Shown: positions 8,975 to 36,999, numbered from the stretch's first letter. The stretch is 64,000 bases of DNA from Candidatus Sericytochromatia bacterium (GCA_036675505.1 JAKFEW010000058.1:7516-71515), one strand, 5' to 3'. Notes: generated from the sequence alone by a model not told the origin. Program-made: numbers and translations.

Positions 8975-11900
8975 TCAGACCAGCATCTCCGCCAGCTCCG
9001 GGCCCTCCAACACCCCGTGGTGGTCGCCTGCAACGACGCGGACCTCGACCCGCTCGGCGAGGCCACCCCAGCCCCAGGCTGGGTCTGGGTGCGCGGTGAA
9101 CGGGCCGTCCGCGGCCTGTGCCAGCACGAGCCGCCCCGACCAACCGCCGGCCGGCCGGTAACCAGCCGTTGCGACCGCCGACGCTCGGAAGACCGCGAAC
9201 AGCGCCTCGACGCCCGAGTCCGCGACCTCCGCCGGCAACGCGCCGCTCGCGCGCGCCGCGGCGATCGCGCGGGCCAGCGCGGCGTCCGGGCCGCCCGACA
9301 GGTCGATGGCGTCCGGCAGGCCGGCGTACGCGCCCAATTCGCAGATGAAGCGCGCGAGCAAGAGGTCGTCGTCCGGCGGCTCGGCGGGCTCGCCCACCGG
9401 CGCGGCCATGTCGATCACGACCAGCCGTTCGACCTCGCGGCCAGCCGCCGCGAGCCGCCGGGCGAGCTCATAGGCGACCAGGCCGCCCGCGGACCAGCCC
9501 GCCAGGCGGATCGGGCCTGCGGGCCGGCAGGTGGCGATCGCCGCCGCATGGCGCGCCGCGATTGCCGCGACGTCCGCCACGGCCTCACCATCCCCGACGC
9601 CGGGCGCCTCGAGCGCCCAGACCGGCAGGTCGGCCGGCAGGCGCGCGGCGAGCGGGCGCAGCGGGAACGCGACGCCGGCCGCGCCGGGCACGAGAAACAC
9701 CGCTGGGCCGGGCCCAGGGAGGGGGCTGCCTGGTAGCTGGGGGGTGCCGGGTGACGGGGGAGTGCCGGGTGGCAGGGGGGTGGCAGCCAGCAGGAAGGTG
9801 GCAATCGGCAGCGAGCCGACTGCCGCGGCGTTGAGCGGCACGGGCGCGCCGAACGCCGGCGCCTCGTCGAGGGCCGCCGCGAGGCGCGCCACCGTCGCCG
9901 CACGCACGAGCGTGGCGAGCGGCAAGGGCTGCCCCAGAACGGTTTCCAGCCGCGCGGCGAGCGCGAGGCCGAGCAGCGAGTGGCCACCGAGCTCGAAGAA
10001 GCCGTCGTGGATGCCGACCCGATCGACCCCCAGCACCTCGGCCCAGGCGGCGGCGATCGCGGTCTCGCGGGCGTCACGCGGCGCGACATAGGGTGTGACG
10101 AGCTCGGGGCGGCCATGGGCCACGGCGTCGACCGTCGGCCGCGCCGCGAGCGCCGCAGCGAGCCGCCGCGTCAGCTCGGCCGGGTCGGCCGGCACGATCG
10201 CCGCCTCCGAGACGCCGAGCGCCAGGGCGTCACGGAAGGCGGCCACCGCCGCCGCGGGGGCGAGCGCCACGGCATCGCGCGCCGCGACCCAGGCCTCGAG
10301 CCCCGGCGGCACCGGCTGGCGTGCCGCCATGCCGACCTCGCGCCAGGGTCCCCAGGCCAGCGTGACGCTCCGCGCGGCTCCGCGGGCGCCGAAAGCCGCG
10401 AGGAACGCGTTGGCGGCGGCGTAGTCGGCCTGGCCGGGCCCGCCAGTCCAGGCCGCGAGCGCGCCGCAGTGGACGATCAACGCCGGCGGCGCGTCCGCGA
10501 GCACCCGCGCGAGGACGCGCGCGCCGGCCACCTTCGGGCGCAGCACCGCCGCGGCCTCGGCGCGGTCCCGCGTGGCGAGCAGCCCGCCGCCAGGCACCCC
10601 GGCCGCGTGGATCACGCCCTCGATCGGGCCGAAGCGATCGCGGATGGCGGCGATCGCCCCCCGCATGGCCGGCTCGTCGGCCACGTCGGCCGCCACGGTC
10701 ATGACCTCGGCGCCGTGCACGGCGAGCCGCGCCAGGGCGTCGGCCAGGGCGGCGTCCGGTGAACGGCGGCCGAGCAGCGCGAGCTTGCCCGCCCCCGCGC
10801 TCGCGAGCGCCTCGGCGAGCGCGAGGCCGACGCCGCCCAGGCCGCCGGTCACGAGCCAGGTCGAGCCGGCGCGCGGCGCCCAGGGGACCGCCGGGGCCTG
10901 TGCGGGCGCCCAGCCGGGCTGCCAGCGATGGCCGCCGCGCAGCGCGACGAGCGGCGGGGCGTCGGCGGCGAGCACCTCGGCGAGGGCGATCGCCGGCGCG
11001 AGCCCGACGGGCTCCGCGTCGATCACCCGGCAGACCAGCCCCGGCACCTCGAAAGGCAGGCAGCGCGCCGGCCCGAGCGCCAGGGCGGCGCCGGCGTCGG
11101 GGCACTCGTCGCCGGTGACGTCGTGGATCGGCCCGGCGACGATGGTGAGCCGGCGCAGGCCGGGGAGGCGAGCCAGGGCAGCGGGGAGCCAGAAGCCGAG
11201 TGCGCTCTCGCCCTCGGGATCGGGGGGGAGGACGAGGACCACGTTGGGGGGGAGGGTGGCGGGAAGGGCGGCGGGATCGGCGGGGGCGACCTCGACGGCG
11301 GCGCCATGGGCGCTGAGGGCGGCGGCCAGCGCGGGGGCGTCGCCGAGGAGGAGCCAGGGGCCCGCGGGGAGGTCGCCGGCGACGGCGGGGGCGGTGCGGG
11401 TCCAGGTGGGGAGGTGGATGTCGCCCGGCACCCATTCCCTCTCCATGGGTGGGTTCGTGGGGGAGCTGGAAAGAGGGGAAGGGTGCTTGGGGAGCGGGGG
11501 GATCCAGAAGCGGGTGCGCGCGAAGGGGTAGGTCGGCAGCGGCACGCGCCGCCCGCGCGACGCCCCCATCTCCAACCCGGTCCCCGCCAGCCACAGCCGC
11601 CCGAGCGCCTCCCTAAACGGCCCCGGGTCCGCCTCGCCCTGCCCGGCCATCGTCGCAAGCGCGGGACGGCCCGTGAGGGCCGGGTGGCGCCTGGTCAGGG
11701 CCAGCAGGCCCTGACCAGGCCCCAGCTCGATCGGCAGCGCGGCCGGATCCGCGAGCGCGGCGGCCAGCGCGTCGCCGAAGCGGACGGGCGCCACGAGCTG
11801 GCGGCCCCAATAGGTCGGATCCATGGCGTCCTCCGGCGTGATCCAGCCGCCCGTCGGCCCCGACGTGAACGGCAGGCCGGGCGCCTGCCGCGGCAGCCGC

Positions 11901-36843: not shown

Positions 36844-36999
36844 CGCAGCGACTGAAGTATCATCATTGATCTCCACCTGGTTTGTCGTTCAACACCCAGA
36901 TTGGCTGTCTTATCATCGCCTTATTGCGAGGTGAAATCTGGGTTAATGGGCCGGTTCAGCGACGCCTCACGCGCGTATCGCAGGTGGTACCATGGCGCC

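What the first reader, a model, noticed from the sequence alone, without database searches (positions are those of the whole stretch)
8975..36866. Uncharacterised fatty-acyl-primed PKS/NRPS cluster predicted to make a thiazole-containing lipo-depsipeptide/polyketide hybrid
Five co-directional, translationally coupled core genes give a colinear assembly line: FAAL, ACP, docking-domain LLM, [KS-AT-ACP | C-A-PCP | Cy-A(Cys)-PCP-Ox], then [docking domain-C-A-PCP | KS-AT-KR-ACP | TE]. Module logic predicts a fatty acyl starter; one non-reduced (beta-keto, possibly methyl-branched) ketide; one amino acid; a Cys-derived thiazole, from the Cy domain plus a C-terminal McbC-like oxidase; a second amino acid with a Thr-like code; one beta-hydroxy ketide; and TE release, possibly macrolactonisation. 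Accessory pccB, Sfp-PPTase and type II TE lie immediately upstream. I cannot match this architecture to a characterised pathway from memory.
Basis: partly seen in the sequence, partly recalled or inferred. Interest (0 to 1): 0.8.

Follow-up and report, generated by a model that had tools for sequence, protein, structure and literature searches.

The report
Orphan thiazole lipopeptide-polyketide gene cluster
This is a real, intact and so far uncharacterised gene cluster from an uncultured non-photosynthetic relative of cyanobacteria; it should build a fatty-acid-tailed, thiazole-containing small molecule by textbook assembly-line logic, so it is a good mining target but not a new kind of biology.

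Summary
On the minus strand, FAAL (29301-31013), ACP (29065-29304), a docking-domain LLM (27807-29045), a 3429-aa KS-AT-ACP-C-A-PCP-Cy-A-PCP-Ox protein (17521-27810) and a 2849-aa docking-C-A-PCP-KS-AT-KR-ACP-TE protein (8975-17524) form one operon. Three junctions overlap by 4 nt and one has a 19-nt spacer with a GGAGG.

Domain HMMs and solved-structure matches confirm Cy (EpoB), Ox (BmdC) and TE. A-domain codes read Leu-like, Cys-like and exact Thr.

- pccB lies on the opposite strand, divergent from FAAL, though this synteny is conserved in two or three related contigs.
- The LLM is a MupA/Atu3671-family oxygenase, 42% identical to the PuwE Ox domain. Family precedent predicts alpha-hydroxylation of a carrier-bound thioester.
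- The KR lacks its catalytic Ser, so the beta-hydroxyl is uncertain.
- The carboxyltransferase has Gly at the PccB specificity Asp.

The host is a Sericytochromatia-like MAG. Relatives exist only as metagenome fragments covering the front half (81-91% identical). No other homologue of the thiazole half exceeded 47% identity. No MIBiG comparison was possible.

Verdict: a genuine orphan BGC and a new variant of a known kind, of moderate interest.

The parts
36000..36866 (-). Lipoprotein-like ORF (288 aa; lipobox LTAC), paralogue of orf33635. Function unknown; it marks the upstream edge of the cluster.
   Evidence: 37% identity to orf33635, E 1e-50. No Pfam or NCBIfam hit. High GC3. This exact sequence is not a called gene in the public collection.
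35242..35991 (-). Type II (editing) thioesterase, 249 aa
   Evidence: PF00975, E 4.9e-39. GHSLG and GDHF motifs are present. Exact match to a public gene call.
34523..35245 (-). Sfp/HetI-type phosphopantetheinyl transferase, 240 aa. Its ATG overlaps the TEII stop (ATGA).
   Evidence: PF01648 and PF22624. HetI model hit at 4e-34. Start site. Exact match to a public gene call.
33635..34438 (-). Lipoprotein-like ORF (267 aa; lipobox LVGC), paralogue of orf36000. Function unknown.
   Evidence: The AlphaFold model was unusable (pLDDT 36). Exact match to a public gene call.
32055..33605 (+). PccB-type acyl-CoA carboxylase beta subunit (carboxyltransferase), 516 aa, transcribed divergently from FAAL. 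It has Gly at the PccB D422 / MccB A423 specificity position.
   Evidence: PF01039, E 7.5e-173. PDB matches: PCC beta 586 bits, MccB 557 bits, AccD4 425 bits. The motif RKAYGGAYGSMGAK aligns with MccB ...GGGYAVMGS. A divergent carboxyltransferase-FAAL arrangement is seen in L069 and JGI contig esWdOdhj; a third contig (swtmnDL0) has an unannotated divergent ORF in that position.
31666..31824 (-). Conserved 52-aa ORF of unknown function, upstream of FAAL on the same strand
   Evidence: AGGAGG lies 6 nt before the ATG and GC3 is high. A 52-aa ORF occupies the same position in a related JGI contig. It is a called gene in the public collection. No Pfam hit.
31580..31613 (-). Perfect 15-bp-stem hairpin, 52 nt downstream of the 52-aa ORF. 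Possibly a terminator or operator.
29301..31013 (-). Fatty acyl-AMP ligase (FAAL), 570 aa
   Evidence: PF00501, E 2.8e-67, plus PF23024. The top standalone-enzyme NCBIfam hits are FAAL models (PRK05850 413 bits, FadD32 372 bits), all below curated cut-offs.
29065..29304 (-). Free-standing acyl carrier protein, 79 aa (Ser in GLGSLE). It has no C-terminal docking tail.
   Evidence: PF00550, E 2.2e-14. It is 47-61% identical to the ACPs that precede the docking-domain LLMs in L069, L107 and L108.
27807..29045 (-). Beta-hairpin docking domain (residues 1-55) fused to a MupA/Atu3671-family FMN-dependent luciferase-like monooxygenase, 412 aa
   Evidence: TubC_N, E 1.1e-10, and Bac_luciferase, E 1.6e-30. 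TIGR04020 scores 430 bits against a cut-off of 244. PDB 6KET (PuwE) matches at 6e-91 with 42% identity.
17521..27810 (-). geneA, 3429 aa. Domains in window coordinates: KS (26614-27735), AT (25111-26049; GGSLGE...VASH), ACP (24577-24798), C (23227-24525), A1 Leu-like (about 21700-23150), PCP (21451-21642), Cy (about 20070-21400; DALVADAAS at 20968-20994), A2 Cys-like (18571-20004), PCP (about 18300-18510), Ox (17626-18129), acidic C-terminal tail DAEFEEFTL (17524-17550).
8975..17524 (-). geneB, 2849 aa. Domains in window coordinates: beta-hairpin docking domain (17339-17482), C (15938-17266), A3 Thr (14456-15871), PCP (14177-14368), KS (12965-14110), AT (11717-12529; GHSLGE...HAVH), KR (10337-10861; catalytic Ser replaced by Ala at HCGALAAW, 10448-10471), PCP-like carrier (Ser motif at 9971-10000), TE (9008-9700; GWSAGG).

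Best explanation
This is an intact, native, orphan hybrid type I PKS/NRPS biosynthetic gene cluster in a Sericytochromatia-like (non-photosynthetic cyanobacterial) genome.

Shown by the sequence:
- The gene set, the domain order, the catalytic motifs and the A-domain codes.

Inferred pathway:
1. The FAAL adenylates a fatty acid and loads it on the free-standing ACP.
2. The docking-domain LLM is recruited to that ACP and, using reduced FMN from a reductase encoded elsewhere, hydroxylates the carrier-bound thioester. The most likely site is the alpha-carbon.
3. Module 1 (KS-AT-ACP, no reductive domains) adds one branched extender. This is methylmalonyl or a larger alkylmalonyl unit made with the adjacent PccB/MccB-like carboxyltransferase. 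The beta-ketone is left in place.
4. C-A-PCP adds Leu or a close analogue.
5. Cy-A-PCP-Ox adds Cys, cyclises it and oxidises it to a thiazole.
6. The acidic tail after Ox docks the beta-hairpin domain of geneB, whose C-A-PCP adds Thr.
7. The last KS-AT-KR-carrier module adds malonate.
8. The TE releases the chain, by hydrolysis or by lactonisation onto one of the hydroxyls.

Predicted skeleton: (hydroxy)acyl-(2-alkyl-3-oxo)-Leu-thiazole-Thr-CH(OH or =O)-CH2-CO-.

The type II TE and PPTase are housekeeping helpers for the line.
For: Architecture:
- Domain order and catalytic motifs.
- Cy matches EpoB, HMWP2, BmdB and PchE heterocyclisation domains only. Ox matches BmdC.
- Codes by alignment to GrsA: A1 DAWFLGHVVK (9/10 to the Leu code), A2 DLWNMSLIWK (8/10 to the Cys code), A3 DFWNIGMVHK (10/10 Thr).

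LLM:
- It passes the curated TIGR04020 cut-off.
- It is 42% identical to the PuwE Ox domain. That domain is credited with the 2-hydroxyl of the puwainaphycin lipid (PMC4219810).
- MupA, which gives the family its name, alpha-hydroxylates ACP-bound thioesters in vitro (PMC10952193).
- The ACP then docking-LLM gene pair recurs in all seven related contigs examined (six distinct loci, since L108 and L109 are the same locus from two samples), plus the window itself. This holds whether a KS or a C domain follows. The ACPs are 47-61% identical across these contexts.

Extender unit:
- The G[GA]SLGE...VASH motif of AT1 is conserved in L068 and L069.
- The divergent carboxyltransferase is syntenic in L069 and one JGI contig, and probably in a second JGI contig where the ORF is unannotated.

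Native origin:
- GC3 is 0.92-0.94 in the cluster and 0.88-0.96 in the flanks.

Host:
- The window's H+-PPase is 82-83% identical to Candidatus Sericytochromatia MAG proteins.
Against: - No product, expression or biochemical data exist.
- The LLM substrate is not settled. MupA accepts only beta-keto thioesters, and a distant docking-LLM (L106) follows a PKS carrier that has a docking tail. In the window the only docking-type tail is on geneA, not on the free ACP.
- The KR has Ala at the catalytic Ser, so the last ketide may stay as a ketone.
- The FAAL scores below the NCBIfam equivalog cut-offs.
- No transporter, regulator or flavin reductase was recognised in the cluster.
- Conservation of the back half (Cy through TE) in relatives could not be shown.
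Confidence: 0.7

Rival explanations
1. The assembly line is the same, but the LLM acts as in PuwE and MupA. It alpha-hydroxylates the beta-ketoacyl thioester on ACP1 of geneA after the first extension, giving a 2-hydroxy-2-alkyl-3-oxoacyl unit. It would be held on geneA through the geneA C-terminal tail, shared with geneB.
For: - MupA hydroxylates only the beta-keto substrate (PMC10952193).
- The PuwE Ox domain sits next to a non-reducing KS-AT-ACP module (PMC4219810) and is the best structural match.
- Module 1 here has no KR.
- In L106 the docking-LLM follows a PKS whose carrier ends in ...DTVIEGVL, which resembles the geneA tail ...AEFEEFTL.
- One docking tail can recruit several partners (PMC9113145).
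Against: - In L107 and L108 the ACP plus docking-LLM pair is followed by a docking-C-A NRPS with no KS on the 5-6 kb fragments recovered, so no beta-keto intermediate is evident there.
- The geneA tail lies 2300 residues away from ACP1.
Confidence: 0.3
2. The terminal KR is inactive or only structural. The last unit stays as a 4-amino-3-oxoacyl thioester, and the TE releases it by cyclisation, to an N-acyl pyrrolidine-2,4-dione or to a 6-membered lactone via the Thr hydroxyl. This would replace release as a beta-hydroxy acid or macrolactone.
For: Alignment to four solved KRs puts Ala at the catalytic Ser and Gly at the preceding Ser (HCGALAAW versus FSSxxG).
Against: The NADPH motif TGGLGGVG and the catalytic Lys, Tyr and Asn are all kept. 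A dead KR usually loses these. Ser-less SDR enzymes can keep partial activity (my own knowledge, not tested here).
Confidence: 0.25
3. Module 1 performs a mycolic-acid-like or stambomycin-like condensation. The carboxyltransferase carboxylates a medium or long-chain acyl-CoA, and AT1 loads the resulting alkylmalonyl unit, giving an alpha-alkyl (not methyl) branched beta-keto lipid.
For: - Gly sits at the position where PccB has Asp and MccB has Ala. An Asp-to-Ala change lets PccB take longer chains (PMC5187497).
- AT1 has the unusual G[GA]SLGE...VASH motif, conserved in relatives.
- The FAAL and ACP give their best NCBIfam hits to FadD32 and the Pks13 N-terminal ACP.
- The carboxyltransferase is syntenic with the cluster.
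Against: - Overall the protein is closer to PCC beta and AccD5 (586 and 533 bits) than to AccD4 (425 bits).
- Thermotoga and Sulfolobus homologues carry Ile at this position, so the residue is not a simple code.
- It may be the genome's housekeeping PCC.
Confidence: 0.2
4. The cluster is an already characterised pathway, or a close orthologue of one, that I failed to recognise.
For: No MIBiG or antiSMASH comparison was available. The word-indexed protein search did not return the query's own long protein, so it may miss long megasynthases.
Against: - geneA and geneB are singletons at 90% identity.
- An exhaustive HMMER scan of 1.84 billion representatives gave at most 46% identity for Cy-A-PCP-Ox.
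- Species-representative genomes gave at most 47% and JGI metagenomes at most 46%.
- None of the 67 genome loci has an LLM nearby, and the best FAAL-like hits there are 34% identical or less.
- The nearest named LLM homologue is 56% identical, from an uncultured MAG.
Confidence: 0.05

Closest known systems
Puwainaphycin/minutissamide (puw) and microginin-type lipid initiation: FAAL + ACP + non-reducing KS-AT-ACP + LLM 'Ox' domain
   Same: FAAL and a separate ACP prime the line. A KS-AT-ACP module without reductive domains follows. An LLM oxygenase 42% identical to the PuwE Ox domain (PDB 6KET) is present.
   Different: - No aminotransferase domain, so no 3-amino acid is made.
- The LLM is a separate protein with a beta-hairpin docking domain, not an in-line domain.
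- The downstream peptide is unrelated, and the host lineage is different.
MupA / OocM / CalD trans-acting alpha-hydroxylases of trans-AT PKSs (TIGR04020 family)
   Same: Same curated family (430 bits against a cut-off of 244). It is a free-standing, carrier-dependent two-component FMN oxygenase, and no reductase is encoded in the cluster.
   Different: This is a cis-AT/NRPS hybrid context. There is no KS0 'hydroxylation bimodule'. Recruitment is by a fused docking domain next to a free-standing ACP.
Thiazole-forming Cy-A-PCP-Ox modules (EpoB, MtaC/D, BlmIII/IV, BmdB+BmdC, HctE/F)
   Same: Cy with DxxxxD (EpoB Cy E 1.9e-83), a Cys-like A code, and an FMN nitroreductase-type oxidase (BmdC E 7e-24). 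As in epothilone and tubulysin, subunits join through a short tail and a TubC_N-type docking domain.
   Different: Ox sits after the PCP and carries the docking tail. The neighbouring modules differ from all of these pathways. Identity to any homologue outside its own uncultured lineage is at most 47%.
Hectochlorin/lyngbyabellin-type cyanobacterial lipodepsipeptides
   Same: Acyl-ACP-primed starter, one PKS module, thiazole modules with Ox, and a terminal TE that forms an ester.
   Different: No halogenase, no alpha-hydroxy-acid (A-KR) modules, only one thiazole, and a final PKS module after Thr. The resemblance is recalled from my own knowledge and was not tested by sequence.
MccB (SamR0483) medium-chain acyl-CoA carboxylase beta subunit of the stambomycin cluster
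   Same: A PccB-like carboxyltransferase encoded beside a PKS, with a small residue at the PccB Asp specificity position (557 bits to PDB 5INF).
   Different: The residue here is Gly, not Ala. Activity is untested, and the overall best match is an ordinary PCC beta.

Membership tests
Modular cis-AT type I PKS / NRPS hybrid assembly line | KS Cys-His-His, AT GxSxG, carrier Ser, C HHxxxD, A core motifs with the terminal Lys, TE GxSxG...H | tested here: met
   - KS: DTACSAS / EAHGTGT and QTGCSTS / EAHGTGT.
- AT: GGSLGE and GHSLGE.
- Six carrier Ser motifs.
- C: HHAIGDG and HHVVADA.
- A: SGSTGxPKG and GK[VL]DR.
- TE: GWSAGG and GDHHG.

Thiazole-forming Cy-A(Cys)-PCP-Ox module | Heterocyclisation domain with DxxxxD in place of HHxxxDG | tested here: met
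   DALVADAAS is present. All PDB hits at E<=1e-10 are Cy domains.
Thiazole-forming Cy-A(Cys)-PCP-Ox module | Cys-specific A-domain code (DLYNLSLIWK) | tested here: inconclusive
   DLWNMSLIWK matches 8 of 10 positions. No specificity predictor was available.
Thiazole-forming Cy-A(Cys)-PCP-Ox module | FMN-dependent nitroreductase-fold oxidase domain | tested here: met
   PF00881, E 2.3e-8. BmdC oxidase, E 7e-24, over 176 residues.
MupA/Atu3671 FMN-dependent LLM (TIGR04020) | Score above the curated family cut-off | tested here: met
   430 bits against a cut-off of 244.45.
MupA/Atu3671 FMN-dependent LLM (TIGR04020) | Alpha-hydroxylation of a carrier-bound thioester | not testable with these tools
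   Needs an enzyme assay.
Short tail / beta-hairpin docking pair | N-terminal TubC_N-type domain | tested here: met
   PF18563 scores 41.8 bits (LLM) and 56.9 bits (geneB) against a cut-off of 26.
Short tail / beta-hairpin docking pair | Short charged C-terminal tail on the upstream partner | tested here: inconclusive
   geneA ends ...[12 protein letters not shown], which is acidic and hydrophobic. The free ACP ends ...ADHLAGAGA with no such tail. These were judged by eye, with no tail model available.
Fatty acyl-AMP ligase | Match to curated FAAL models; adjacent cognate ACP | tested here: inconclusive
   The top standalone-enzyme hits are FAAL models but fall below cut-off (412.7 against 775; 372.5 against 975). 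PF23024 is present and the ACP gene overlaps by 4 nt. The FAAL insertion motif was not examined.
Puwainaphycin/microginin beta-amino-alpha-hydroxy lipid initiation | Aminotransferase domain next to the Ox domain | tested here: not met
   No aminotransferase family hit in any cluster protein.
Propionyl-CoA-specific PccB | Asp at the D422 specificity position | tested here: not met
   Gly in RKAYGGAYGSMGAK. The position was located by alignment to MccB A423 and by PMC5187497.
Catalytically competent PKS ketoreductase | NADPH motif plus the Lys-Ser-Tyr(-Asn) catalytic residues | tested here: not met
   TGGLGGVG, Lys, Tyr and Asn are present. The Ser position is Ala in alignments to 3SLK, 4J1Q, 5D2E and 4HXY.
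FadD32-Pks13-AccD4 mycolic condensation system | AccD4-type long-chain carboxyltransferase and a Pks13 ACP-KS-AT-ACP-TE protein | tested here: not met
   The carboxyltransferase is closer to PCC beta and AccD5 than to AccD4 (586, 533 and 425 bits). KS-AT-ACP is fused to NRPS modules and is not followed by a TE.

The most novel reading that the evidence does not exclude
The free-standing ACP plus beta-hairpin-docking MupA-family oxygenase is an uncharacterised, recurrent two-gene cassette. It tethers a flavin oxygenase directly to an acyl-ACP that has no docking tail, and it feeds either a KS or a C domain. In this cluster it would help make the first natural product known from Sericytochromatia: a hydroxylated, alpha-branched, thiazole-containing 14-16-membered lipodepsipeptide with a new scaffold.
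Probability: 0.3. Interest if true: 0.55.

Novelty: new variant of a known kind. Interest (0 to 1): 0.4.

Why it matters
Non-photosynthetic cyanobacterial relatives (Sericytochromatia) have no characterised natural products in the literature I could search. This cluster is a complete, apparently functional assembly line from such a genome.

It also shows a docking domain fused to a luciferase-like oxygenase. That fusion partner is not among those listed in a 2021 review for this docking class (PMC9113145). If the docking is real, it gives a portable way to recruit an oxygenase to a chosen carrier protein.

Otherwise the chemistry follows standard PKS/NRPS rules. The value is as a genome-mining and heterologous-expression target, not as a conceptual surprise.

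Tried and rejected
1. Exact-protein contig look-ups for geneA and the H+-PPase found nothing, although the proteins are in the collection. I therefore obtained no accession or organism name for the source contig.
2. Scans of species-representative genomes and JGI metagenomes with Cy-A-PCP-Ox found only relatives at 47% identity or less. None had the FAAL/LLM context. Polymorphospora and Krasilnikovia loci share C-A-PCP-Cy-A-PCP-Ox followed by docking-C-A-PCP at 41-43% identity, but inside pure NRPS lines.
3. A homologue search with full-length geneB timed out. The 907-aa C-terminal query returned at most 40% identity but did not return the protein itself, so I treat it as a weak negative.
4. 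P0468, which has a similar length and hit position, turned out to be 42% identical with an NRPS rather than a PKS front.
5. An AlphaFold model of the lipoprotein paralogue failed (pLDDT 36), so I did not run a fold search.
6. Rfam found nothing in the window. Sigma-70 promoter scans found nothing useful.
7. I rejected horizontal transfer as the cause of the high cluster GC. GC3 equals that of the flanks, and the excess is in codon positions 1 and 2.
8. Literature searches for PDB codes 6KET and 9J0C found no paper.
9. I considered and rejected membership of the puwainaphycin family (no aminotransferase) and of the mycolic Pks13 system.
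Full report
**Observation**

The window is GC-rich (69% in the flanks, 77-79% across 10-30 kb). I picked real frames by GC3 and found one minus-strand operon:
- FAAL, 29301-31013
- ACP, 29065-29304
- LLM, 27807-29045
- geneA, 17521-27810 (3429 aa)
- geneB, 8975-17524 (2849 aa)

These starts and stops are exactly the genes called in the public protein collection, all on one unnamed NCBI contig of 137,290 bp. 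Three junctions are 4-nt overlaps (GTGA, GTGA, ATGA). The ACP-LLM junction is TGA-7 nt-GGAGG-7 nt-ATG.

- geneA: KS-AT-ACP-C-A-PCP-Cy-A-PCP-Ox.
- geneB: TubC_N docking domain-C-A-PCP-KS-AT-KR-carrier-TE.

The Cy call rests on DALVADAAS replacing HHxxxDG, and on all eight PDB hits at E<=1e-10 being heterocyclisation domains (EpoB 1.9e-83). Ox matches the bacillamide oxidase BmdC (7e-24).

**Accessory genes**

- The type II TE (35242-35991) and a HetI/Sfp-type PPTase (34523-35245, ATGA overlap) are on the same strand.
- The carboxyltransferase ('pccB') is on the plus strand (32055-33605), divergent from FAAL.
- Two paralogous lipoprotein-like ORFs (33635-34438 and 36000-36866; 37% identical) bracket the TE-PPTase pair.
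- A 52-aa ORF (31666-31824) has a strong ribosome-binding site and a downstream perfect hairpin. It lies between pccB and FAAL. A 52-aa ORF sits at the same place in a related JGI contig.
- Beyond 36866 lies an RNA methyltransferase gene. Below 8975 lies a 62%-GC island with a CDI-toxin-like ORF.

**Specificity and catalytic state**

Aligning the three A domains to GrsA recovers GrsA's published code DAWTIAAICK as a control. The window codes are A1 DAWFLGHVVK (9/10 to the Leu code DAWFLGNVVK), A2 DLWNMSLIWK (8/10 to Cys) and A3 DFWNIGMVHK (exact Thr).

AT1 has GGSLGE...VASH, a branched-extender-type motif. It is conserved as G[GA]SLGE...VASH in L068 and L069. AT2 has GHSLGE...HAVH, which is malonyl-like.

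Module 1 has no KR, DH or ER.

The geneB KR keeps TGGLGGVG, Lys, Tyr and Asn. In alignments to four solved KRs, however, the catalytic Ser is Ala and the preceding Ser is Gly.

The terminal carrier is PCP-like and shares about 60 nt of almost identical DNA with the Thr-module PCP.

**The LLM**

It passes the curated cut-off of TIGR04020, the MupA/Atu3671 family (430 against 244 bits). Its only strong solved relative is PDB 6KET 'PuwE' (6e-91; 42% identity over 340 columns).

PuwE carries a non-reducing PKS module plus aminotransferase and monooxygenase domains, and these are credited with the 3-amino-2-hydroxy lipid of puwainaphycins (PMC4219810). MupA was shown in vitro to alpha-hydroxylate an ACP-bound beta-keto thioester. 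It did not accept the free pantetheine substrate or the beta-hydroxy form, and it needs an external flavin reductase (PMC10952193).

The family theme is therefore alpha-hydroxylation of a carrier-bound thioester.

**Where the LLM acts**

The N-terminal 55 residues of the LLM are a TubC_N beta-hairpin docking domain. A 2021 review lists such domains on C, E, Cy, TE, MT, reductase and halogenase partners, and lists docking tails after oxidases and carriers (PMC9113145). LLMs are not on that list.

Ten of the 120 best LLM homologue clusters carry the same fusion. I examined the gene context of seven related contigs (six distinct loci, since L108 and L109 are the same locus from two samples):
- L068, L069 and two JGI contigs.
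- L107 and L108/L109.
- In each, a free-standing ACP gene immediately precedes the docking-LLM, as in the window.
- In L107 and L108 the next gene is a docking-C-A NRPS rather than a KS.
- These ACPs are 47-61% identical to the window ACP and have no C-terminal tail.
- In L107 the docking domains of the LLM and of the NRPS share the same insertion. This suggests that both bind the same ACP.

This favours action on the FAAL-loaded ACP.

Against this, in the more distant Chitinivorax locus L106 the docking-LLM follows a PKS whose carrier ends in a tail (...DTVIEGVL) that resembles the geneA tail (...AEFEEFTL). MupA's requirement for a beta-ketone also fits ACP1 of module 1. I keep this as the main rival (0.3).

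**The carboxyltransferase**

It is a PccB-type protein: PCC beta 586 bits, MccB 557, AccD5 533, AccD4 425. A divergent carboxyltransferase-FAAL arrangement is seen in L069 and JGI contig esWdOdhj, and a third contig (swtmnDL0) has an unannotated divergent ORF in that position. In L069 the carboxyltransferase fragment is 73% identical to the window's pccB.

At the position where PccB has the specificity Asp and the stambomycin MccB has Ala, it has Gly. An Asp-to-Ala change lets PccB accept longer acyl-CoAs (PMC5187497). A methyl branch remains the default reading. A larger alkyl branch is a live alternative (0.2).

**Origin and relatives**

The window's H+-PPase is 82-83% identical to Candidatus Sericytochromatia MAG proteins and 73% identical to 'Cyanobacteria bacterium RYN_339'.

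Front-half relatives:

| Locus | Source | FAAL | ACP | LLM | geneA portion |
|---|---|---|---|---|---|
| L068 | SRA-assembly (Logan) contig | 81% | 91% | 91% | 81% (first 890 aa) |
| L069 | RYN_339 MAG contig | 58% | 55% | 56% | 50% (first 1750 aa) |

For the thiazole half:
- Species-representative genomes gave at most 47% identity.
- JGI metagenomes gave at most 46%.
- An exhaustive HMMER scan of 1.84 billion representatives gave at most 46%.
- The similar-length hit P0468 is 42% identical and has a different front.
- geneA and geneB are singletons at 90% identity.

GC3 is the same in the cluster and the flanks, so the high cluster GC reflects amino-acid composition and not recent transfer.

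I found no literature on natural products or characterised clusters from Sericytochromatia in the held library.

**Limits**

- No MIBiG or antiSMASH comparison was possible.
- The word-indexed search failed to return the query's own long protein, so its negatives are weak. The exhaustive scan also did not list the query protein itself.
- Conservation of the back half in relatives is unknown.
- Fatty-acid chain length, hydroxylation site, branch size, KR activity and release mode are all inferences.

**Verdict**

This is a genuine, complete, orphan FAAL-primed PKS/NRPS cluster whose logic is canonical. I rate it a new variant of a known kind, with interest 0.4.

Noticed in passing
window 31666-31824 (-) and hairpin 31580-31613: A 52-aa ORF with an AGGAGG ribosome-binding site and high GC3, followed by a perfect 15-bp-stem hairpin. 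A 52-aa ORF occupies the same position (between pccB and FAAL) in a related JGI contig. It has no family hit and its function is unknown.
   Followed up: partly
window 33635-34438 (-) and 36000-36866 (-): Two paralogous lipoprotein-like proteins (37% identity, lipoboxes LVGC and LTAC) flank the type II TE and PPTase genes. They have no Pfam or NCBIfam hit and the AlphaFold model failed (pLDDT 36). They could handle or export the lipidic product.
   Followed up: partly
window 14279-14340 vs 9971-10032 (geneB): The PCP after the Thr A domain and the terminal carrier after the KR share about 60 nt of almost identical DNA (AAWAEVLGV[E/D]RVGIHDGFF[D/E]LGGHSLL). This points to an internal duplication or gene conversion, and the PKS module's carrier is PCP-like.
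   Followed up: partly
window 6900-8900: A lower-GC (62%) island directly downstream of geneB. It holds a CDI_toxin_EC869-like ORF (7672-8235) and two small adjacent ORFs (7219-7662, 8235-8783) with no family hits. This looks like a toxin/immunity cassette unrelated to the cluster.
   Followed up: no
L107 1596-6077 and L108 692-4977: Other metagenome clusters have free ACP, then docking-domain LLM, then docking-domain C-A NRPS. In L107 the two docking domains share the same insertion, which suggests that both dock to the one ACP.
   Followed up: partly
L106 1343-12622 (Chitinivorax sp. B, SCOH01000013.1): A FAAL, three fatty-acid desaturases, an ACP, a KS-linker-thioesterase-like-ACP protein ending in an acidic tail, a docking-domain LLM, a class II aldolase and a 4HBT thioesterase. 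This is a different uncharacterised lipid pathway that uses the same oxygenase type.
   Followed up: no
window 43750-53733: The flanking genes are an H+/Na+-pyrophosphatase, two GH57 glucan enzymes, a GGDEF-GAF protein, an HD-GYP-like protein and an anti-sigma kinase/STAS pair. The pyrophosphatase places the contig with Candidatus Sericytochromatia MAGs (82-83% identity).
   Followed up: partly
window 10000-30000: Cluster GC (77-79%) exceeds the flanks (69%), but GC3 is equal. The excess lies in codon positions 1 and 2 (Ala/Gly/Arg/Pro-rich megasynthases), so it is not a sign of foreign origin.
   Followed up: yes
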